In this document: piece by piece, positions 3 through 8,415 of the stretch
How positions within the stretch are numbered: position 1 is the stretch's first letter
Layout of the letters: the number at the start of each line of letters is the position of its first letter
Source: a virus
IMG/VR virus record: IMGVR_UViG_3300012663_000526
Span: 32,001 to 96,000 of that record
Direction: 5' to 3' (one strand)
Length of the DNA stretch: 64,000 bases
Program-made: the position numbers and the translations under genes
The notes under the pieces: generated by a model
Told to the model about the DNA's origin: nothing
What the model saw: the letters and a program-made list of their open reading frames with translations, nothing else
Databases searched by the model: none

Positions 3-1058
3 TTTATAAATGTACTTCCCTCAGAGCTTGCGGAGTTGTCACAAGACGCTATAAATAGTGCTTTAGTTATGGGTCTACATATGACAAAAACATATGATGA
101 CACTTTAAATACAATAACAGTTTCTTCTACTCTTACAAACGTAGACAATACATCGGATGCAGATAAGCCAATATCAACTGCTACATCAACAGCATTAGCA
201 CTAAAAGCTCCTTTAGCCAATCCCGCTTTAACTGGAATTCCAACAGCACCAACTGCTGTGTCTACAACCAATACAACTCAAATTGCAACAACAGAATTCG
301 TAAAGACTGCAATAGCAAATGTTATTGATTTAGCTCCAGGTGCCTTAGACACGTTAAATGAACTCGCCGCCGCAATCAATGATGACGCTTCATACGCATC
401 TACAGTTACTACTGCATTAGGACTAAAAGCTCCTTTAGCCTCACCAACATTTAGCGGAAACGTATCTCTCCCAGCAACTACATCTATTGGAGATGTGTCT
501 AGTACAGAAATATCTTATTTAAATAATGCAACCAGCGAAATACAGGCACAAATAGATCTCAAAGCCCCATTGCTAAATCCAACTTTTACTGGAACGGTAA
601 GCGGAATTACAAAAACAATGGTTGGACTTGGAAATGTTGATAACACTTCAGATTTAGAGAAGCCAATATCTTCTTTAACAGCAACACGTATTGGCTTGTT
701 AGAAACTCAAGTTGTAGACGGATTAGCTGCAAAGGTTGATAAGGCAACTATACCAACATTAAAGTCAGACACTGCTTACACAATTAGCAATCAAACAGAT
801 AGATATAATAGAATTGAATTTGACGCTTCAACAGCAATTACAGTAACTATTCCAACAAATATAAATGATCCGTGGCCAATAGGCTCAAGCTGTGAAATTA
901 TGCAGGCTGGAACTGGAAAAATAACTGTAGTTGGTCAATCTGGAGTAACACTAAGAGCCCCAGACAATCAATTTAAAACTAGAGTTCAATGGAGCACACT
1001 AATTCTTGAAAAAAGAGGCACAAACGATTGGCTAGTATCTGGAGATTCTGATCTATAA
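3..1058 (+). CDS. Virion fibre/tail-fibre-like protein, 5'-truncated by the window edge
   Basis: Frame is open from nt 3 (FINVLPSELAEL...) upstream of the TTG at 36. Fibre repeats KAPLASPTF(T/S)G, NVDNTSD.DKP(I/V)S and LDTLNELAAAINDD. C-terminal Q.G.G...W...GD cap typical of phage fibres. Confidence 0.75.
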   Translation, partial: FINVLPSELAELSQDAINSALVMGLHMTKTYDDTLNTITVSSTLTNVDNTSDADKPISTATSTALALKAPLANPALTGIPTAPTAVSTTNTTQIATTEFVKTAIANVIDLAPGALDTLNELAAAINDDASYASTVTTALGLKAPLASPTFSGNVSLPATTSIGDVSSTEISYLNNATSEIQAQIDLKAPLLNPTFTGTVSGITKTMVGLGNVDNTSDLEKPISSLTATRIGLLETQVVDGLAAKVDKATIPTLKSDTAYTISNQTDRYNRIEFDASTAITVTIPTNINDPWPIGSSCEIMQAGTGKITVVGQSGVTLRAPDNQFKTRVQWSTLILEKRGTNDWLVSGDSDL

Positions 1059-2458
1059 TGGGACTATCAAGAAAAAAAAGAAATATTGTATCCTCAAGAC
1101 TAAAGGCATTTGTATTTTTCCAAGATAGTTTTAATAATTATTTTAAGGGCGGATGGAAATTTAGAAGAGGTCAATGGACAGCTGGTTCTTCTACTGCATC
1201 AACAGCATATAGCTCATCTCTTTATCCAATGGCTTCAGTTCCAATGAAAGATCCAAATGTAACTATTTCTATTAAAAATCCAGGCATTGGATCAGGTGCC
1301 GCTCTTTGGGTAACAGATGAAGGTAACTGGTACGGATTAGTTTCTTCACAAGTAGCAAGTCCTGGAACAGGAGCATGTCTTTCTGTAAATCCTTATAATC
1401 CTTGTGGAGCAACAAATGGTTGCGAAGGCACTGGAGGAAATTGTTACGGAAGCGGCGGATGCTCAGGCACTGGAGGAAATTGTGTTGCAACTGGCGGAAA
1501 CTATGCTGGCACAAACTATGAGTGCCAAGCTTCAAACCCAAGCTGTAATGTTGAGTATGCAAATTGTGTTGCAACTGGTGGAAACTGTAATCAAGGTGGA
1601 TTTAACTGTAATACATTTGGCGGAAACTGCAGGGCTACAGGAGGAAACTGTAACACTGGTGGTGGAAACTGTAGAGCTGGAACTGGTGGAAACTGTTCTC
1701 AATATGGTTGGTGCGGAATCCCATTTGCAGCAAGCTACTGGTGCTGTAATAGATATAATCCTTACAATCCATGCCCAAGCACTAACCCATACAACCCTTG
1801 TGTTAACATAAACCCATATAACCCATGTGCAAGCTTAAACCCATATAACCCATGTGTAAACATTAACCCATATAACTATTGCATAAATATAAATCCATAC
1901 AATCCATGTGCATCCACAAACCCATACAATCCTTGTGTTAACGTAAACCCTTACAACCCATGTGCATCTACTGTTCCTAGAGATCAGTATAATCCAGTAA
2001 ATCCATGTGGCTCCACAAACCCATATAATCCATGTGGCTCCGTAAACCCTTACAATCCATGTGCTGGAGTCAACCCATACAACCCTTGTGGTGCAGGAGG
2101 AAACTGTGCTGGAACTGGTGGAACATGTAGCTCTTATGCAACTACCTATCCAAGATACTTACAGCTTATTAGGTTTACATCAAATGTTGCAACAGCTATA
2201 TATACTTTCACTTTAGATGCAGTAACAAGCTATGTTCAGATGAAGGGTCTAAAAATTCAAATATCAAATGCCACCAAAGGTGGAACTACAGCCACAATAA
2301 CAGCCAAAGCATACTCTGACACCGCAATGGTGACCCAAATTGGAAGTGATTTGATATATAACGCAACAGGTGTTAATATTGTAGCTAACTACGGAATAGT
2401 TGTTTCTCCAAGCAGCTATAACCAAGAAAGTTCACTTGGAGAAATTACAATATCGTGA
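1058..2458 (+). CDS. Cys-rich repeat protein: probable beta-sandwich (ConA-like) domain split by a 251-aa Cys-ladder insertion
   Basis: Start overlaps the upstream stop (TAATG). All 32 Cys lie in aa 107-357. Flanks (FQDSF...W...GSGAALWVTDEGNWYG / YLQLIR...TITAKAYSD...YGIVVSPS) are beta-strand rich. Confidence 0.8.
   Translation: MGLSRKKRNIVSSRLKAFVFFQDSFNNYFKGGWKFRRGQWTAGSSTASTAYSSSLYPMASVPMKDPNVTISIKNPGIGSGAALWVTDEGNWYGLVSSQVASPGTGACLSVNPYNPCGATNGCEGTGGNCYGSGGCSGTGGNCVATGGNYAGTNYECQASNPSCNVEYANCVATGGNCNQGGFNCNTFGGNCRATGGNCNTGGGNCRAGTGGNCSQYGWCGIPFAASYWCCNRYNPYNPCPSTNPYNPCVNINPYNPCASLNPYNPCVNINPYNYCININPYNPCASTNPYNPCVNVNPYNPCASTVPRDQYNPVNPCGSTNPYNPCGSVNPYNPCAGVNPYNPCGAGGNCAGTGGTCSSYATTYPRYLQLIRFTSNVATAIYTFTLDAVTSYVQMKGLKIQISNATKGGTTATITAKAYSDTAMVTQIGSDLIYNATGVNIVANYGIVVSPSSYNQESSLGEITIS
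1376..2128 (+). repeat. Coding tandem repeats: ~21-nt (xxTGGNC) block followed by ~27-nt (xxxNPYNPC) block
   Basis: Directly visible, e.g. repeated aacccatacaacccttgt and actggtggaaactgt. Third-position divergence shows selection at protein level. Confidence 0.95.
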
Positions 2459-2468
2459 GGAGTATATT

Positions 2469-2675
2469 ATGACAGAAAACATCCCAACCTGGGAAAGAAT
2501 AGGTTCAGGAGAAGGGCCTGCTCAGATTGCCTTCGCTTTGGTTTTAGATGGCATCGTTCAGCAAGTTATGTCTACAAATGTAGCCACAGCATCTCTTTTA
2601 TTAGAAGGACCACAAATTATAAGATGTAAGGATGACGCTGAAGTTGGAATGACAGTTGAACAAGCTGCGCTCTAA
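2469..2675 (+). CDS. Small hypothetical protein (possible fibre chaperone), paralog of 3378-3686
   Basis: GAGGAG SD before ATG 2469, preferred over 2400. IAFALVLDGIVQQVM...LLLEGPQII aligns with YSIALVLDNEVQDIL...MLMSNPVIV. Confidence 0.7.
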   Translation: MTENIPTWERIGSGEGPAQIAFALVLDGIVQQVMSTNVATASLLLEGPQIIRCKDDAEVGMTVEQAAL

Positions 2676-2703
2676 GTAACACCCTAATAGAATAGAGAAG
2701 TAA

Positions 2704-3381
2704 TTGAGAATAATAAAGTTTATTCCGTTTGGCGGAAGGAAAAACCTTATGCCTCCATCTATATCAAAAATACCACAATGGTGGAAAGATGGAGAAACAT
2801 CTACATCTGCTGGAACTCCAGGACTTAAGTCGTGTGTTCCCTTTATGGAAATAATGAAGTCTGGATATACAATAAATTTACCATTTGATATATTTGTTTC
2901 TAGGAATGAAGATGGAACTACAAATTTAAGATGGAACGCTCCAAATGAAGCTGGTTGGCCAAACTTTATTGAAGAAAGACCACCAGATCTTGGGAAAACA
3001 ATTCCAAGACCAGCAGGACATCTTCCAAATGGATTTGTATGGACATCACAATGGTCATGGAAAACTCCAAAAGGATATAGTACGATAGTAACTCATCCAT
3101 TTAATAGATTTGATCTTCCATTTACTACAGTATCTGGCATAGTAGATTCAGATAAATTTCAGGGAAATGGAAATATTCCATTTTTCTTAAAAGAAGATTT
3201 TCAAGGCGTAATTCCAGAAGGAACTCCAGTAGCCCATATATTTCCATTCAAAAGAGATAAGTGGAAGTCTTGGGTAGATGATTCTGTGGTAGAGTCTATA
3301 TATAAGAATCAAATAGCTAATTTAAGAGAGCCTGATGGTTCGTATAAAAAGGCATTCTGGGTAAAAAAGGTGTATGAATGA
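2704..3381 (+). CDS. dUTPase-fold-like hypothetical protein (DUF6065-related), copy 1
   Basis: Motifs IPQWWK, KSCVPF, WKTPKGYS, HPFNR, SGIVDSD, IPEGTPVAHIFPFKR. Resembles dUTPase motifs 3 and 4; no Gly-rich motif 5. Confidence 0.7.
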   Translation: MRIIKFIPFGGRKNLMPPSISKIPQWWKDGETSTSAGTPGLKSCVPFMEIMKSGYTINLPFDIFVSRNEDGTTNLRWNAPNEAGWPNFIEERPPDLGKTIPRPAGHLPNGFVWTSQWSWKTPKGYSTIVTHPFNRFDLPFTTVSGIVDSDKFQGNGNIPFFLKEDFQGVIPEGTPVAHIFPFKRDKWKSWVDDSVVESIYKNQIANLREPDGSYKKAFWVKKVYE

Positions 3382-3686
3382 TATTTAAAAAGAAAAACAG
3401 GATTGAAAAAATAAATCCAAAAACAGATAACTTTAAGGAACCAAAGACTTATCACGAAGAAAAAAAGATATACTCAATTGCACTAGTTCTAGATAATGAA
3501 GTTCAAGATATTCTTAGAACAGAAGAAAGACTCTGGGCAATGTTAATGAGTAATCCAGTAATAGTAGACATTACGGACAATGAGACAAGACCACAATTAA
3601 ACTGGGAATACAACGAGGAAACAGGAGAGTTCACAAATCCAAATGCAATTCAACCCAACAACGAAGAAGATCAAAGCTCTATCTGA
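3378..3686 (+). CDS. Small hypothetical protein (possible fibre chaperone), paralog of 2469-2675
   Basis: ATGA overlap with upstream gene. ALVLD.EVQ motif. C-terminal WEYNEETGEFTNP resembles the W.Y....F..P ends of fibre-associated chaperones. Confidence 0.7.
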   Translation: MIFKKKNRIEKINPKTDNFKEPKTYHEEKKIYSIALVLDNEVQDILRTEERLWAMLMSNPVIVDITDNETRPQLNWEYNEETGEFTNPNAIQPNNEEDQSSI

Positions 3687-4323
3687 AGATATTAGAATAG
3701 ACTGGGAAAAACCTTCCCCAGCTTCAAAAGAAATACCTAAATGGTTTAAAAAAATTGAAGCGGTAAATGATGAAAATCATGATATGACAATAAAGAAGTG
3801 CATCCCTTTCTTGGACACACTTACAACTGGATATATGTTTAAAACATCTGCAGATGTAATATATGACGAAGAGTATCATAGATTCTTAGACAATGGTGTA
3901 TCTGAAACCGTTACACTTCATCCTACATTTCAAATAGAAAATATGGAGATAGATAGCAATCTACACCCACTTCCGTATAAATGGATTAACAAGTTTATGT
4001 GGCAGACTCCTAAAGGATACAGCACCATGTTCTTGCACCCATTAAACAGAACAGACCTTCCATTCCAATCTATATCTGGTATCGTAGATACAGATGACTT
4101 TCCTTTGTCAGTACAGTTCCCGTTTTTTATGAAAAAGGGATTCTCTGGTTTAATACCAGCAGGAACTCCAATTATTCAAGCCATACCTTTTAAAAGAGAT
4201 GACTGGGATCTTAAGTTTCCAGATCAACAAGAATCTTACGAATACGAAGGTTTTTGGAATTGGTTCCAGCCTCCTATGGCAAAGTACAAAAGGCAATTCT
4301 GGAAGAGAAAGCGCTATCAGTGA
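3643..4323 (+). CDS. dUTPase-fold-like hypothetical protein (DUF6065-related), copy 2
   Basis: IPKWFK, KKCIPF, WQTPKGYS, HPLNR, SGIVDTD, IPAGTPIIQAIPFKR, YKRQFW. Clear paralog of 2704-3381. Confidence 0.7.
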   Translation: MQFNPTTKKIKALSEDIRIDWEKPSPASKEIPKWFKKIEAVNDENHDMTIKKCIPFLDTLTTGYMFKTSADVIYDEEYHRFLDNGVSETVTLHPTFQIENMEIDSNLHPLPYKWINKFMWQTPKGYSTMFLHPLNRTDLPFQSISGIVDTDDFPLSVQFPFFMKKGFSGLIPAGTPIIQAIPFKRDDWDLKFPDQQESYEYEGFWNWFQPPMAKYKRQFWKRKRYQ

Positions 4324-5159
4324 AAGACAAGAAAACTCCATGGGATATTTTTAAGTCTAAGGGTCAAGAAAAGGTATCCTTAGAGGATGAAGTAAAAAAA
4401 GACTACATAAATGATGACGACTTCTTGGTGCCAGAAAAAACTCTAGCATTTTACGCTACAAGAGATACTAGACATAATTTGTCAGATGTGATGGAAAGTT
4501 TAATTGGTCACCCGAATAGGGATTGGTTTGCAGTCACAGCATTTTCTTTTTGTCTTCCATTAACAATAGCAAATCAATATGGATTTGTAGTAAAGTCAAA
4601 TTGGGATATGGAAATAACTTGGGATGGTAAAGCAGAGTCTTCGCCTCAGATAAAATCAGATGGTTGGCAAAACCATGATTCAATTCAGCCTATTATAGGA
4701 GATTTTGCAAATGGAATAATTAGCCTAGAAAATGCGTTTATAGTAAGAACCCCAAGAGATACGAATCTAATGATCATGCAGCCTCCAAATTACTTTATAC
4801 CAGGACTTCACACAATGAGTGCCGTAGTTGAAGCGGATAACCTTAGAAGAAATTTTACCTTCAACATAAAGGTTACTGAGCCAAATAAGGTTATAAATAT
4901 TAAAAAGGGTGACTGGCTTGCGGCATTTATTCCAATACCAAGATTTTACGTAGATAGCTTTGAGATGAAAGACGCATTTAAGCTCTTTGGCGATGAAGTA
5001 ATAAAAAACGAGCTAGAGTCCATGCATAAGCTTGGTTGGGAAAGGAATAATCAAGACTATGATAAAATTAATGGTTCAGGAAGAAGATATTTTAAGGGCA
5101 AGCATGTAAATGATACTCCTTATAGAAATCATCAGAAAAGGGCGGGGTTAAATGGATAA
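4320..5159 (+). CDS. DUF6065-like protein (divergent third member)
   Basis: GTG 4320 overlaps the upstream TGA. RDWF...FCLPLTIANQYGF, QPPNY, AVVEAD, FTFN, IKKGD..A.FIPIPR. Confidence 0.7.
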   Translation: MKDKKTPWDIFKSKGQEKVSLEDEVKKDYINDDDFLVPEKTLAFYATRDTRHNLSDVMESLIGHPNRDWFAVTAFSFCLPLTIANQYGFVVKSNWDMEITWDGKAESSPQIKSDGWQNHDSIQPIIGDFANGIISLENAFIVRTPRDTNLMIMQPPNYFIPGLHTMSAVVEADNLRRNFTFNIKVTEPNKVINIKKGDWLAAFIPIPRFYVDSFEMKDAFKLFGDEVIKNELESMHKLGWERNNQDYDKINGSGRRYFKGKHVNDTPYRNHQKRAGLNG

Positions 5160-5421
5160 TAGCGATATTCCTAAGTGGAAGAATGTCCCAGCTAGACCAT
5201 GGGATTTGTTTAATAAAAAAATAGGAAGAGTTCCTTCTGAGGTTGCGGCTGAAAGATTTGAAATTTGCAAGGCTTGCCCTAGATATGTAAAATCTACACA
5301 TCAATGCTTAGAGTGTGGATGTATTATGAATTTAAAAGTTAAGCTGCCTAATGCCGAATGTCCTTTGGGTCATTGGGGCCAAGTAGACTTAGAAGAGAGT
5401 ACAGACTTAGATAAGGAATAA
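5152..5421 (+). CDS. Small Cys-cluster (CxxC...CxxCGC...CP) protein
   Basis: RFEICKACP...QCLECGCIM..K..L..AECPLGHW; six Cys. Confidence 0.75.
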   Translation: MDNSDIPKWKNVPARPWDLFNKKIGRVPSEVAAERFEICKACPRYVKSTHQCLECGCIMNLKVKLPNAECPLGHWGQVDLEESTDLDKE

Positions 5422-5440: not shown

Positions 5441-5457
5441 GGTATAATTAAAGCATG
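5441..5457 (+). promoter_or_regulatory. -10 box (TATAAT) 6 nt before ATG: probable leaderless promoter
   Basis: TATAAT at 5443-5448, ATG at 5455, no SD. Confidence 0.6.
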
Positions 5458-8415
5458 GCTACGTCATTCCCAACCTCAAAAGATACTCTGATTAATCCAC
5501 AACCTCTGGATTCACCAGAATTAGTATCACATGCCGCCCAGCATGCTAACGCAAATGACGCAATTGAAGCCCTTGAGACAAAGGTTGGAGTTAATAACTC
5601 TGCTGATGCCACATCCCATGACTATAAAATAAGAACCCTAGAATCTTATGCAATTAGCTATGAAACAGCTCAGGATGCCGCAGGAGCCCTTTTAGGACAC
5701 ACTAACCATACAAACCTTATAGCGACCTATGACGATGTTTTAAATGAAGTTAGACTTTCAGTAGCCGCTCCAGATGTTGCTAGAACAATTTATCAAACTG
5801 CCAAAAATGAAACAGGATCTACACTGGCAAAAGGAAAGCCAGTATATGTAACTGGAGCAGTAGGTGCATCAGGAAAAATTAAAGTTGGGCTAGCCTCAAA
5901 TGTATCAGAAGCACAATCAAGCAAGACATTTGGATTTACAGCAGAGTCTATTTCTAATAATAGCGAAGGCCAAATAATTACAGAAGGACTTCTTTCTAAT
6001 ATTAATACAGTTGACGGAGCTGACGGAGATCCTGTATGGCTTGGATCAAATGGTAGTTTAATATTTGGTCTTGTCAATAAGCCAAAAGCACCACAGCATC
6101 TTGTATTCCTTGGAATTGTTGTAAGAGGCGGACATGCCAATAACGGATCAATATTTGTTAAGATACAAAATGGATTTGAGCTTGAAGAATTACACAATGT
6201 TTTAATTAAGTCTCCAGCAAATAGTCAAGCTCTTGTATATGATTCAGCTTCAGGTTTATGGAAGAATATAAGCATAAATGCTGGAACTGGAATAACAAAA
6301 ACATACACTTCGGTTCCCCCCAATTATCGTGGAGACTATGACAACGGTGCATACTATGCAATAAATGATGTTGTCAGCATCCCAGTTGGAAGTCCATACG
6401 GAATAGTAGGTTCATATTTTATAAGGTCTGGAAATCCAGGAAACCCAGGATATCCTCCAGAGCCAGGCGGAGCAACAAATGCTTCTTGGACTTTATTTGA
6501 TTTTTCTTCAAGTATAACTATTGGAGTAGATACTTCAGTAATAGCAACTCAATCTTATGTAACTACAGCAATATCTAATTTGCTAGATGGAGCACCAGCC
6601 GCTCTAGATACTTTAAATGAATTAGCAGCAGCAATAAATGACGATGCTTCTTATGCAGCAACAATAACAACTGCACTAGGAACAAAATTAAACTCAACAA
6701 CTGCAGCCACTACTTATCTTGCCCTTGCAGACACAGACGAAAGAATACAAGATGTAGTTGGGGGAATGGTTTCTTCAAATACTGAAGGCGGAATTGAAGT
6801 AACATACGATGACCCAACAGGAAAGCTTAATTTTAGTGTCACCCCAGCGCTTATAACAGAGTTTGTAGAATCAGCACAAGATGCATCAGCCTCATTATTA
6901 AATCACTCAGATCATAATAAAATAACAGCTACATATAATGACGAAACAAATAAAGTAATATTAAATGTAGATGAGCCAATTAAGGTTAGTGTTTCAGCGC
7001 CAGCAAACCCATTAAATGGAGATAGCTGGTTTGATCATCAGACTGGAGTGCTTTATGTTTACGATGGCTCATACTGGATTGAAGTATCAGGCGGAACTGG
7101 CTTTACAGCTAGCGGTATAAATGACTTGCCAGATAGTATTGCATATTTAGATGGAGTCACAAGTAACGTTCAAACACAATTAAATGCAAAAGCTCCACTG
7201 GCTTCTCCAGCTTTAACTGGTACGCCAACTTCTACAACTGCTTCTGTAGATACAAATACTACACAGATAGCGACTACAGCATATGTAATGGGTCAAGGAT
7301 ATGCTAAGTTAGCAGGTCCAACATTTACTGGAACGGTTACGTTGCCATCTACAACTTCTATAGGAACAATAACATCAGCGGAGCTTGGATATGTTGACGG
7401 AGTAACCTCATCAATTCAAACACAAATAAACACTAAGTCTCCTTCTGTTTCTCCAACTTTTACAGGAAACGTAGTTCTTCCGTCTACAACATCAATTGGA
7501 AATGTTTCAGATATAGAGATTGGGTATTTAGATGGAGTAACATCTTCTATCCAAACTCAAATAAATACAAAATTAGCAACTGCATCTTTTAGCTATGTAA
7601 ATATGGTAAAGGCTACTTATGCAAATGTTGGCTCACTTCCTGCCGCTGCTTCAAATACTGGAAAAGTTATGTATGTAACTGCTGACGGATATATGTACTA
7701 TTCAACAGGAGCAACTTGGGTAAAGATTGCAAAATTTAACGATACAACAGCTTTAACATATAATATTAATGCGCTTACAGATGTTGATACTGGAACCGTT
7801 GCCCCATTAGTAAATCAAGTATTAGCATGGAATGGGTCTCAGTGGGTTCCAGCAAATCAGAATTCAGCAACCCCATCAATAACATTAGATGACATTACAA
7901 ATGTTGATTTTTCTGTTCCTCCTGAAACTGATGATGTTCTTACATATAATGGTTCAGAATGGGTTGCGGCTGCTGGAGGAAATTCAGTTGTAGAAATACC
8001 AGCCTTTGCAGATTTAACAGATATATTCCAAACAGCAGACATGATTGCTTATCCAGCAATAACAAGGCTAACTGTTACTGCTGCAGGATCATCTGGATAT
8101 GTCTTTGGAGATCAATATAATAATACAGTAAATCCAACAGTTTATGCTATATCAGGAACAACAATTGCATTTAATTTAAATGTGCCAGGTCATCCATTCT
8201 TAATTCAAACATCTGGCGGAGCTAACTCTAACGCAGGACTTGTGCATGTATCTACAGATGGAACTGAAAGTGTTGGGGGAAATGCACAGGGTAAAACAGA
8301 AGGAACTCTTTACTGGCGCATACCATTCAATACTACTGGCAACTATAAATATCAATGCTCAATTCACGTTGGGATGAATGGAGTTATTACGATTAAGGAT
8401 ATTGCTACAATATGA
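5455..8415 (+). CDS. Mosaic virion fibre protein with CBM5/12-like insert and C-terminal cupredoxin-like domain
   Basis: Fibre repeats (LDGVTSSIQTQIN, LDTLNELAAAINDD, LTDVD...QVL.WNGS.W). C-terminal GHPF...YQCSIHVGM. Confidence 0.8.
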   Translation: MATSFPTSKDTLINPQPLDSPELVSHAAQHANANDAIEALETKVGVNNSADATSHDYKIRTLESYAISYETAQDAAGALLGHTNHTNLIATYDDVLNEVRLSVAAPDVARTIYQTAKNETGSTLAKGKPVYVTGAVGASGKIKVGLASNVSEAQSSKTFGFTAESISNNSEGQIITEGLLSNINTVDGADGDPVWLGSNGSLIFGLVNKPKAPQHLVFLGIVVRGGHANNGSIFVKIQNGFELEELHNVLIKSPANSQALVYDSASGLWKNISINAGTGITKTYTSVPPNYRGDYDNGAYYAINDVVSIPVGSPYGIVGSYFIRSGNPGNPGYPPEPGGATNASWTLFDFSSSITIGVDTSVIATQSYVTTAISNLLDGAPAALDTLNELAAAINDDASYAATITTALGTKLNSTTAATTYLALADTDERIQDVVGGMVSSNTEGGIEVTYDDPTGKLNFSVTPALITEFVESAQDASASLLNHSDHNKITATYNDETNKVILNVDEPIKVSVSAPANPLNGDSWFDHQTGVLYVYDGSYWIEVSGGTGFTASGINDLPDSIAYLDGVTSNVQTQLNAKAPLASPALTGTPTSTTASVDTNTTQIATTAYVMGQGYAKLAGPTFTGTVTLPSTTSIGTITSAELGYVDGVTSSIQTQINTKSPSVSPTFTGNVVLPSTTSIGNVSDIEIGYLDGVTSSIQTQINTKLATASFSYVNMVKATYANVGSLPAAASNTGKVMYVTADGYMYYSTGATWVKIAKFNDTTALTYNINALTDVDTGTVAPLVNQVLAWNGSQWVPANQNSATPSITLDDITNVDFSVPPETDDVLTYNGSEWVAAAGGNSVVEIPAFADLTDIFQTADMIAYPAITRLTVTAAGSSGYVFGDQYNNTVNPTVYAISGTTIAFNLNVPGHPFLIQTSGGANSNAGLVHVSTDGTESVGGNAQGKTEGTLYWRIPFNTTGNYKYQCSIHVGMNGVITIKDIATI

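What the first reader, a model, noticed from the sequence alone, without database searches (positions are those of the whole stretch)
1694..1750. Aromatic knob at the hairpin apex (CSQYGWCGIPFAASYWCC)
Seen: a clearly non-repetitive segment at the ladder's symmetry centre, rich in W/Y/F and closed by a vicinal CC. Inference: a receptor-binding loop held at the end of a long thin stalk, conceptually like the stalk-and-knob of bovine ultralong CDR-H3. It could reach through an S-layer or capsule.
Basis: inference. Interest (0 to 1): 0.72.

Follow-up and report, generated by a model that had tools for sequence, protein, structure and literature searches.

The report
Exchangeable four-cysteine tip of phage stalk
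An uncultured phage's tail-fibre-associated protein carries, at the far end of a long cysteine-stapled hairpin, an 18-residue aromatic four-cysteine cap that exists in two discrete versions swapped between phage lineages. It is most likely an exchangeable host-contact tip, but it is not hypervariable in the way an antibody loop is.

Summary
The peptide CSQYGWCGIPFAASYWCC is real. It forms residues 213-230 of a 466-aa ORF (window 1058-2458, +) whose start overlaps the stop of a tail-fibre gene, in a complete 108-kb phage that encodes WhiB, so the host is probably an actinobacterium. It sits at the centre of 32 cysteines, with 14 on each side.

AlphaFold2 and a fold search show that the N- and C-terminal thirds form one ConA-like lectin β-sandwich (Z 15.5). 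The cysteine-rich insert and the cap are not confidently modelled, so burial could not be judged.

Every cap-bearing relative keeps the spacing C-x5-C-x9-CC. Two types occur:
- **T1:** WCG[IV]P…CCN, the window's type.
- **T2:** GNCLVYGSYYxSCCK.

On a tree of the base domain, T1 needs at least 4 changes. Near-identical proteins differ only in about 45 residues around the cap. Synonymous divergence jumps in the insert, and dN/dS stays below 0.35. This is cassette exchange under purifying selection, not hypermutation, and the genome holds no DGR template.

T2 is among the most conserved parts of its proteins. T1 has two short variable patches. The hevein resemblance fails (8.9 bits against a 27.8 cut-off).

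The best reading is an exchangeable host-contact tip, analogous to gp38 (confidence about 0.45). The scan has noted this family before on another genome.

The parts
3..1058 (+). 3' part of the upstream tail-fibre gene; its stop overlaps the start of the cysteine-ladder gene (TAATG)
   Evidence: PHROG tail-fibre families at E 1e-26 to 1e-27.
1058..2458 (+). Complete CDS of the 466-aa cysteine-ladder protein (P0001)
   Evidence: ORF listing and translation. Homologs: 74 clusters at 90% identity and 453 clusters at 50% identity.
1058..1417 (+). N-terminal half of the ConA-like beta-sandwich base (residues 1-120; highly conserved GAALWVTDxGNW motif)
   Evidence: AF2 pLDDT of 92-97 for residues 21-110. 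VIA-align gives Z 15.5 to CBM66, 14.4 to the Douge baseplate protein and 13.2 to the TM4 gp23 RBD.
1376..1693 (+). Ascending arm, residues 107-212, with 14 Cys, mostly xxTGGNC at a 7-residue period
   Evidence: Cysteine positions. The Cys count equals that of the descending arm in 19 of 32 homologs, and the differences are even in all but one.
1484..1537 (+). Non-repeat mid-stalk bulge on the ascending side (residues 143-160); a second variability hot spot
   Evidence: Top-ranked entropy windows at 147-153. AF2 strand 149-157, pLDDT about 67.
1694..1747 (+). The cap: CSQYGWCGIPFAASYWCC (residues 213-230), type T1, frame C-x5-C-x9-CC
1748..2128 (+). Descending arm, residues 231-357, with 14 Cys, mostly xxxNPYNPC at a 9-residue period
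1961..2005 (+). Mid-stalk bulge on the descending side (residues 302-316), facing residues 143-160
   Evidence: Entropy hot spot at 302-306. AF2 strand 304-311, pLDDT about 69.
2090..2455 (+). C-terminal half of the beta-sandwich base (residues 345-466)
   Evidence: AF2 pLDDT of 86-98. The fold matches span residues 16-466.
2469..5421 (+). Co-conserved downstream cassette: small protein, DUF6065-like p225, small protein, DUF6065-like p226, DUF6065 protein, and an 89-aa Cys-motif protein
   Evidence: The same gene order follows the ladder gene in viral loci down to 36% identity. Pfam DUF6065 at E 8e-30. The Atlas places p225 in DUF6065-like clusters.

Best explanation
The 18-residue cap is the distal end of a tail-fibre-associated adhesin-type protein.

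- **Architecture.** The conserved ConA-like beta-sandwich, formed by the N- and C-terminal thirds, is the constant part and probably docks the protein on the virion or fibre. A roughly 225-residue two-armed repeat insert folds back on itself and is stapled by paired cysteines: 14 rungs plus two pairs in the cap.
- **The cap.** A fixed four-cysteine frame (C-x5-C-x9-CC) holds a small cluster of aromatic side chains. Only 18 residues and two cross-links are available, so these side chains probably cannot all be buried. They would therefore be offered as a contact surface, most plausibly for a cell-wall glycan or another conserved surface structure of an actinobacterial host.
- **How specificity changes.** It does not change by point hypermutation. 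Whole cap cassettes (T1 or T2) and a mid-stalk bulge are exchanged by homologous recombination, with the flanking GGNC and NPYNPC repeats as plausible crossover sites. This resembles the hypervariable segments lying between glycine-rich motifs in T-even gp38.

Shown: the architecture of the base, the Cys parity and symmetry, the two cap types, their repeated exchange, and purifying selection. Inferred: disulfide chemistry, exposure of the aromatics, virion location, and binding to the host.
For: - **Gene position.** The gene follows a tail-fibre gene with a stop/start overlap and lies inside a fibre cluster. The order fibre, ladder gene, DUF6065 cassette, fibre is kept in viral loci down to 36% identity.
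- **Base fold.** A ConA-like lectin fold, also used by actinophage receptor-binding and baseplate proteins: CBM66 Z 15.5, Douge 8zdo Z 14.4, TM4 gp23 RBD Z 13.2, J-1 Dit CBM2 Z 12.
- **Conservation gradient.** The base is the most conserved part and the insert the most divergent, as in receptor-binding proteins with a constant proximal and a variable distal part.
- **Cysteine pairing.** The insert has an even Cys count in 98 of 101 family members. Ascending and descending counts are equal in 19 of 32. A one-repeat indel next to the cap is matched on both arms (alignment; Cys counts 14/14 against 13/13).
- **Cap frame.** It is invariant, with two types.
- **Exchange.** T1 needs at least 4 changes on the base-domain tree. 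P0003 (T1) and P0004 (T2) are 89% identical and differ almost only in about 45 residues around the cap. P0007 and P0009 have nearly identical bases but different cap and bulge blocks.
- **Recombination signal.** Between the window and L002, dS is 0.07-0.11 in the base and 0.5-0.7 in the insert, with dN/dS of 0.09-0.18 across the insert (cap 0.18).
- **The cap is dispensable for the fold.** Some lineages lack it or carry a different Tyr-rich module. A Cys-free homolog, P0075, keeps the plan of repeats, aromatic centre, repeats.
- **Precedent.** The gp38 design of conserved Gly-rich scaffold plus variable tip segments is described in PMC3157838, and the Pam3 gp24 equivalent in PMC9608196.
Against: - No structure supports it. 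AF2 pLDDT is about 30-44 over the insert and cap and 36.5 for the isolated cap with flanking repeats, so exposure of the aromatics is an assumption.
- The T2 cap is nearly invariant between proteins whose bases are only about 50% identical. That fits a conserved partner or a structural role as well as, or better than, a host receptor under an arms race.
- The lectin-like base could itself be the receptor-binding domain, as in TM4 gp23.
- No homolog has been characterised: no Pfam, PHROG or PDB sequence hit and no match in cultured phages.
- Virion incorporation, oligomeric state and disulfide formation are all untested.
- The host is inferred only from WhiB and from portal similarity to Streptomyces phages.
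Confidence: 0.45

Rival explanations
1. The cap is purely structural. The aromatic residues and two cystine links form a small hydrophobic plug that nucleates or terminates folding of the long hairpin and fixes the register between the 7-residue and 9-residue repeats. Receptor binding, if there is any, lies in the ConA-like base or in the neighbouring fibres.
For: - The length and Cys frame are fixed in all cap-bearing homologs.
- T2 is under very strong purifying selection (rank 34 of 433 windows), and dN/dS is below 0.35.
- The base has a classic carbohydrate-binding fold that other actinophages use as their receptor-binding domain.
Against: - About 21 of 54 representatives placed on the tree build the hairpin with no such cap or with a different module, so it is not needed for folding.
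- Two unrelated-looking sequences (T1 and T2) fill the same frame and are repeatedly exchanged between otherwise near-identical proteins. A neutral structural plug would hardly behave this way.
- The cap is the most variable region among close relatives.
Confidence: 0.22
2. The cap is a docking or oligomerisation element. It plugs into another phage protein (fibre tip, baseplate, or one of the co-conserved DUF6065 or Cys-motif proteins acting as chaperone or partner), or it clusters with the caps of neighbouring subunits. The lectin-like base would then be the distal, host-facing end.
For: - T2 is near-invariant across deep divergence, which suggests a conserved ligand such as a phage partner.
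- The ladder gene is strictly linked to a downstream cassette of unknown function.
- ConA-like domains are distal receptor-binding domains in TM4 gp23 and similar proteins.
Against: - The base, not the hairpin, is the most conserved part, and conserved parts of phage fibre proteins are normally virion-proximal.
- T1/T2 switches occur between proteins whose remaining sequence is nearly unchanged.
- The loci available here contain only one T1/T2 switch, so co-variation with neighbouring genes could not be tested.
Confidence: 0.18
3. The T1 cap is a degenerate hevein-type (CBM18) chitin or peptidoglycan-binding motif, homologous to the plant and fungal CCSxxGxCG domains.
For: The window's own sequence CSQYGWCG matches the hevein core motif almost letter for letter (reading against the known PROSITE-type pattern, from my own knowledge). 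Pfam Chitin_bind_1 is the only family that aligns there.
Against: - The Pfam score is 8.9 bits at E 2.4 against a cut-off of 27.8.
- Ser-Gln is specific to the window's closest kin. Relatives read CAQY, CRTQ, CRTF or CKTY, and the hevein CC doublet upstream is N-C here.
- A T1 profile search of all PDB sequences at E up to 10 returns only GH11 xylanases (E 0.012), with no hevein or WGA chain.
Confidence: 0.05

Closest known systems
Gp38 tail-fibre tip adhesins of T2/T6/S16-type phages (PMC3157838; S16 gp38, PDB 6F45, as cited in PMC9608196)
   Same: - The gene lies immediately downstream of a tail-fibre gene.
- There is a constant attachment part plus a specificity part.
- In the specificity part, conserved Gly-rich repeat motifs form the scaffold and short non-repeat segments carry the variability.
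- The gene is a mosaic consistent with recombination between lineages.
   Different: - No sequence or profile similarity.
- The constant part here is a ConA-like beta-sandwich, with the variable part inserted inside it.
- The scaffold is a two-armed hairpin with 14+14 paired cysteines, not a Cys-free polyglycine-II sandwich.
- The tip comes in two discrete, conserved alleles, not four hypervariable loops.
Glycine-rich distal domain of cyanophage Pam3 fibre gp24 (PMC9608196)
   Same: A beta-sandwich domain extends into an elongated Gly-rich stem whose diversity increases towards a distal tip proposed to bind the receptor.
   Different: Pam3 gp24 is the trimeric fibre itself, has no cysteine ladder and no discrete cap, and is unrelated in sequence.
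Stalk-and-knob of bovine ultralong CDR-H3
   Same: A long, thin two-stranded stalk presents a small disulfide-rich mini-domain at its end.
   Different: - In the bovine antibodies the knob is about 40 residues and hypervariable in sequence and in Cys pattern, and the stalk is a plain beta-ribbon.
- Here the knob is 18 residues with an invariant Cys frame and two alleles, and the cysteines are mostly in the stalk.
- Diversity comes from recombination between phage lineages, not from somatic mutation.
Hevein / CBM18 chitin-binding domain (Pfam PF00187)
   Same: A local motif, C-S-Q-Y-G-W-C-G, with aromatic residues on a small cystine-stabilised frame.
   Different: It fails the family threshold (8.9 against 27.8 bits). 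The motif is not conserved in relatives. A profile search finds no hevein chain. The Cys pattern differs.
ConA-like receptor-binding and carbohydrate-binding modules of actinophage and siphophage tail tips (TM4 gp23 RBD 9n6a, Douge baseplate 8zdo, J-1 Dit CBM2 5ly8, CBM66 4b1m)
   Same: The base domain has the same fold, with Z 12-15.5 over about 150-170 residues.
   Different: Sequence identity is 7-11%. No roughly 225-residue cysteine-ladder insert was noted in these matches; their structures were not inspected.

Membership tests
Hevein / Chitin_bind_1 (PF00187, CBM18) | Profile score at or above Pfam's gathering threshold | tested here: not met
   8.9 bits at E 2.4 against a cut-off of 27.8 bits, on the isolated 45-aa piece. 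The full-length scan gave no hit.
Hevein / Chitin_bind_1 (PF00187, CBM18) | Core motif C-C-S-x2-G-x-C-G with the Ser and aromatic sugar-binding residues conserved in relatives | tested here: not met
   The upstream residue is N-C, not C-C. Ser214 and Gln215 vary (A, R, K / Q, R, T), and Tyr216 varies (Y, F, Q, S). Only W218-C219-G220 are invariant within T1.
Hevein / Chitin_bind_1 (PF00187, CBM18) | Detectable similarity to solved hevein or WGA chains | tested here: not met
   A T1 profile against 177,635 PDB sequences at E up to 10 returned only GH11 xylanases.
T-even Gp38 adhesin | Sequence or profile homology to gp38 | tested here: not met
   No PHROG family at E up to 0.01, no gp38-related Pfam hit (only a weak Bflower match, E 0.47), no PDB sequence hit at E up to 10, and no tblastn hit in 50,697 phage records.
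T-even Gp38 adhesin | Gene immediately 3' of the distal fibre gene | tested here: met
   The start codon overlaps the stop of a PHROG-assigned tail-fibre gene. The order is conserved in related loci.
T-even Gp38 adhesin | Conserved Gly-rich motifs alternating with variable segments, arranged as a mosaic | tested here: met
   GGNC and NPYNPC repeats are conserved, while the cap and mid-stalk bulge are variable and exchanged. This is an analogy of design and says nothing about ancestry.
T-even Gp38 adhesin | Polyglycine-II sandwich fold | tested here: inconclusive
   AF2 pLDDT is about 30 over the insert, so no usable model exists.
ConA-like lectin/glucanase fold (base domain only) | Structural superposition on solved members over most of the domain | tested here: met
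   VIA-align: Z 15.5 (CBM66, 149 aligned, rmsd 2.7) and dozens of lectins and CBMs at Z 9 or more. The model's pLDDT exceeds 90 in this part. Foldseek alone was weak (E 0.04).
DGR (diversity-generating retroelement) target | A template repeat elsewhere in the genome that matches the variable region | tested here: not met
   A blastn search (word size 7) of the cap region against the complete 107,950-bp genome found only the gene's own internal repeats. A reverse-transcriptase gene was not searched for.
   The Cys count is even in 98 of 101 inserts. Arm counts are equal in 19 of 32, and the differences are even in all but one. An indel is matched on both arms.
   This needs mass-spectrometric disulfide mapping or a solved structure.

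The most novel reading that the evidence does not exclude
Aquatic actinophages carry a previously undescribed class of adhesin. A lectin-fold base projects a cystine-zipped two-stranded repeat stalk, and its end displays one of a small set of interchangeable 18-residue, four-cysteine aromatic mini-knobs (T1, T2 and a longer Tyr-rich form). The knob type sets which cell-surface structure is engaged. Lineages switch host or receptor by recombining knob cassettes at the flanking repeats. This would be a natural 'stalk-and-knob display' system outside the immune system.
Probability: 0.35. Interest if true: 0.78.

Novelty: new variant of a known kind. Interest (0 to 1): 0.6.

Why it matters
If the cap is the host-contact tip, it would be a new structural solution for phage receptor binding. 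It would also be a compact, disulfide-stabilised display scaffold whose natural cassettes can be exchanged.

It would give a simple sequence marker (T1 or T2) to test against host assignments in a large, uncultured group of whiB-encoding phages. The family has 453 clusters at 50% identity.

The T1/T2 dimorphism across deep branches is a concrete, testable case of recombination-driven specificity switching. Even if the cap proves to be only structural, the family shows that about 16 paired cysteines are tolerated in a phage protein made in a reducing cytoplasm. That raises the question of how and when they are oxidised, and what the co-conserved DUF6065 cassette does.

Tried and rejected
- **Sequence annotation.** Full-length P0001 gave no PHROG or PDB sequence hit and only a weak Pfam match (Bflower, E 0.47, 11.3 bits against a cut-off of 25). 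Neither tblastn nor megablast matched any of 50,697 cultured-phage records.
- **Hevein homology.** Rejected.
- **T2 profile against the PDB.** Nothing found.
- **GH11 xylanase match of the T1 profile.** E 0.012, 19 bits. It aligns a beta-hairpin without any of the cysteines, so I treat it as compositional.
- **Bflower (PF21784) match to the NPYNPC repeats.** 17.2 bits, below the cut-off of 25; treated as low-complexity.
- **DGR hypermutation.** No template repeat in the genome.
- **Positive selection.** dN/dS is below 0.35 in every region and pair. Many dS values in the insert are saturated.
- **Cap in other protein contexts.** A search restricted to residues 196-245 found only the same family.
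- **AF2 on the full alignment and on the cap plus four rungs each side.** Both were of low confidence in the region of interest, so burial and disulfide connectivity could not be judged. No fold search was run on the cap model.
- **Function of the DUF6065-type neighbours.** No PDB sequence relatives and no papers.
- **Co-variation of cap type with neighbouring genes.** The fetched loci contain only one T1/T2 switch, so there was no power to test this.
Full report
**Observation**

Window 1694-1747 (+) encodes CSQYGWCGIPFAASYWCC, residues 213-230 of a 466-aa ORF at 1058-2458. The finding's end coordinate, 1750, includes one further codon (Asn231). The ORF's ATG overlaps the stop codon of an upstream gene that matches many PHROG tail-fibre families (E about 1e-26).

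The protein has 32 cysteines, all between residues 107 and 357. Fourteen lie in an ascending arm of mostly xxTGGNC units, four lie in the cap (213, 219, 229, 230), and fourteen lie in a descending arm of mostly xxxNPYNPC units. The cap is therefore at the symmetry centre and is non-repetitive.

It is 28% aromatic against 11% for the whole protein. It is the only 18-residue window of the insert with five or more aromatics, and it holds the insert's only two tryptophans.

**Genomic setting**

The window is bases 32001-96000 of a 107,950-bp IMG/VR virus record with direct terminal repeats, rated complete, with 38.8% GC. The surrounding 23 kb is dominated by fibre and virion structural genes, followed by portal, protease and capsid genes.

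The portal is 62% identical to those of roughly 130-kb Streptomyces phages. The genome also encodes a WhiB-family protein above Pfam's cut-off (45.8 bits). whiB is the marker that a published study used to identify actinophages in freshwater metagenomes (PMC10914622). An actinobacterial host is therefore likely, but it is inferred.

**What the protein is**

Full-length P0001 has no PHROG or PDB sequence match, only a weak Pfam match (Bflower, E 0.47), and no match in 50,697 cultured-phage records. It does have 74 homologous clusters at 90% identity. A profile search gave 453 clusters at 50% identity with E up to 1e-3, of which 317 were at or below 1e-10. All are unnamed metagenomic proteins.

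AlphaFold2 on a 75-sequence alignment models residues of about 17-120 and 345-466 with pLDDT above 90 as a single beta-sandwich. The cysteine-rich middle is at pLDDT of about 30. A full structural scan places the sandwich in the ConA-like lectin/CBM fold:
- CBM66: Z 15.5
- mycobacteriophage Douge baseplate protein: Z 14.4
- TM4 gp23 receptor-binding domain: Z 13.2
- phage J-1 Dit CBM2: Z 12.0

The hairpin is thus an insertion of about 225 residues inside a lectin-fold domain of the kind that actinophages and siphophages use at their tail tips.

**Is the hairpin reading sound?**

Several independent counts support it.
- In 101 family members whose insert I could delimit, the number of Cys is even in 98, with a range of 0-42.
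- In 32 cap-bearing representatives, the ascending and descending arms have equal Cys counts in 19. In all but one of the rest the difference is even.
- The window protein and its closest relative have one extra repeat on each arm, right next to the cap, compared with the next relatives: 14/14 against 13/13.
- The only moderately confident elements AF2 places in the insert are strands 149-157 and 304-311 (pLDDT about 67-69). These lie in the two non-repeat interruptions that face each other under Ci-C(33-i) pairing.

Actual disulfide chemistry and connectivity were not, and could not be, tested.

**The cap across the family**

Every cap-bearing homolog has exactly C-x5-C-x9-CC. Two types fill this frame:
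- **T1:** C-x4-W-C-G-[IVP]-P-x6-C-C-N. This is the window's type.
- **T2:** C-[KR]-x-[FYW]-G-[NY]-C-L-V-Y-G-S-Y-Y-x-S-C-C-K.

Other lineages have no cap, or a longer Tyr-rich module that also ends in CC. A Cys-free relative, P0075, keeps the plan of repeats, aromatic centre, repeats, built from GSNYG units. Across the 101 inserts, the most aromatic 18-residue window falls in the central fifth in 39 cases, about twice the expectation.

Among 54 distinct close relatives (at least about 77% identity, including members of the 90% clusters), mean column entropy by region is:

| Region | Entropy (bits) |
|---|---|
| Cap (213-230) | 1.01 |
| Cap loop (220-228) | 1.36 |
| Arms | 0.48-0.52 |
| Base | 0.18-0.28 |

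The mid-stalk bulge (147-160 and 302-312) is equally variable. At short range, then, the prediction holds.

This is not hypervariability, however. Much of the signal is the T1/T2 dimorphism. Within T2 (24 representatives spanning about 45-95% identity) the cap is among the most conserved windows of the protein: entropy 0.52, rank 34 of 433, against about 1.5 for the arms and 0.8-1.0 for the base. Identical T2 18-mers occur in proteins whose bases are only about 50% identical.

Within T1 (9 representatives) the cap is of average variability (rank 278 of 449). W218, C219, G220 and P222 are invariant, and there are two variable patches, 214-217 and 223-226.

Pairwise dN/dS is 0.18-0.33 for the cap and at most 0.26 elsewhere. 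No second copy of the cap DNA exists in the genome, so DGR-type targeting is excluded.

**How the diversity arises**

On a maximum-likelihood tree of the base domain alone (54 rows), T1 needs at least four changes even if only the well-supported branches are counted. T1 proteins are nested within T2 clades in three deep groups.

P0003 (T1) and P0004 (T2) are 89% identical, and their differences are concentrated in about 45 residues centred on the cap. P0007 (T1) and P0009 (T2) have virtually identical bases and proximal stalks but different cap and bulge blocks.

Between the window and locus L002, synonymous divergence is 0.07-0.11 in the base and 0.49-0.73 in the insert. This is the signature of imported sequence, not of local selection. 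The cap and bulge therefore behave as cassettes exchanged by recombination. The conserved repeats that flank them are plausible crossover sites, but I did not map breakpoints at the DNA level.

**Mechanistic reading**

The layout is a conserved base, a divergent and mosaic distal insert, a gene just downstream of a fibre gene, and a Gly-rich repeat scaffold with exchangeable non-repeat segments. This parallels the gp38 adhesins of T2/T6/S16-type phages (PMC3157838) and the Gly-rich stem with variable tip of cyanophage Pam3 gp24 (PMC9608196). There is no sequence relationship to either.

I therefore favour, at about 45%, the view that the cap is an exchangeable host-contact tip that presents aromatic side chains, plausibly to a cell-wall glycan. 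The extreme conservation of T2 fits a very conserved target. That target could equally be a phage partner or a structural requirement, which is why the structural-plug rival (about 22%) and the docking or oligomerisation rival (about 18%) remain serious. The base itself could also be the sugar-binding part.

**The hevein resemblance**

The window's CSQYGWCG looks like the CBM18 core, but several results count against homology.
- Pfam Chitin_bind_1 scores 8.9 bits (E 2.4) against a cut-off of 27.8.
- The Ser-Gln and the first aromatic are not conserved in relatives.
- A T1 profile finds no hevein or WGA chain in the PDB even at E up to 10. It finds only a marginal, cysteine-free match to a beta-hairpin of GH11 xylanases.

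I reject membership. Convergent use of aromatics on a cystine frame remains possible.

**Neighbourhood**

In viral-contig loci down to 36% identity, the ladder gene is followed by the same cassette. It comprises a small protein, two DUF6065-like proteins (p225 and p226), usually a bona fide DUF6065 protein (E 8e-30), and an 89-aa protein with CxxC-type motifs. Their function is unknown: there are no PDB sequence relatives and no literature. A role in folding, oxidising or modifying the hairpin is an open idea from a sister note and was not tested here.

**Limits**

- Sequences in the entropy and count analyses are phylogenetically related, so the counts are descriptive and are not independent trials.

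**Prior notes**

The scan had already noted this protein family on another genome (e1-6027164). There, a follow-up agent reached the same general reading of a disulfide-laddered hairpin inside a lectin-like domain, with gp38 as the closest known. Sister notes on this window describe the ladder and the downstream cassette.

What this report adds:
- the fixed four-Cys frame of the cap;
- its two discrete types;
- their repeated exchange between lineages;
- the contrast between T2's strong conservation and T1's small variable patches;
- the rejection of hevein membership.

Noticed in passing
window 2704-5159 (p225 at 2704-3381, p226 at 3643-4323, DUF6065 protein at 4254-5159): Three DUF6065-type paralogs lie in a row, each of the first two preceded by a small paralogous protein, and they are followed by an 89-aa Cys-motif protein (5152-5421). 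The block is linked to the ladder gene in related viral loci down to 36% identity. Its function is unknown.
   Followed up: partly
own genome G000:C1:104942-105115 (outside the window), locus L038: A WhiB-family gene (45.8 bits against a cut-off of 23.6) points to an actinobacterial host for this 38.8%-GC phage. The portal is 62% identical to those of Streptomyces phages of about 130 kb.
   Followed up: partly
protein P0075 (412 aa, metagenomic homolog): A Cys-free family member whose insert is built from GSNYG-type 7-residue repeats on both sides of an aromatic-rich centre of about 85 residues. The two-arm-plus-centre plan therefore does not depend on cysteines.
   Followed up: no
window 1484-1537 and 1961-2005: The two non-repeat interruptions of the stalk (residues 143-160 and 302-316) face each other, are as variable as the cap among close relatives, and are exchanged together with it in some pairs. 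This may be a second specificity site on the side of the stalk.
   Followed up: partly
window 1404-1811 (+) and 1272-1574, 1532-1702, 1635-1778 (-): Open frames of 47-135 aa overlap the repeat region in other frames or on the other strand. They are probably by-products of the repetitive codon composition and not genes.
   Followed up: no
window 5455-8415: The 986-aa fibre protein has a weak plastocyanin/azurin-type Pfam match at its C-terminus (PF00127, E 0.066, below the cut-off) and a PHROG 'baseplate wedge tail fiber connector' match. A sister note proposes a cupredoxin-like tip.
   Followed up: no
locus L027:6001-7040: The tblastn match to the ladder protein in this locus, translated in a single frame, contains 16 stop codons after the N-terminal base. 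This could be a frameshifted or decayed copy, or a frame change in the match. It was not examined.
   Followed up: no
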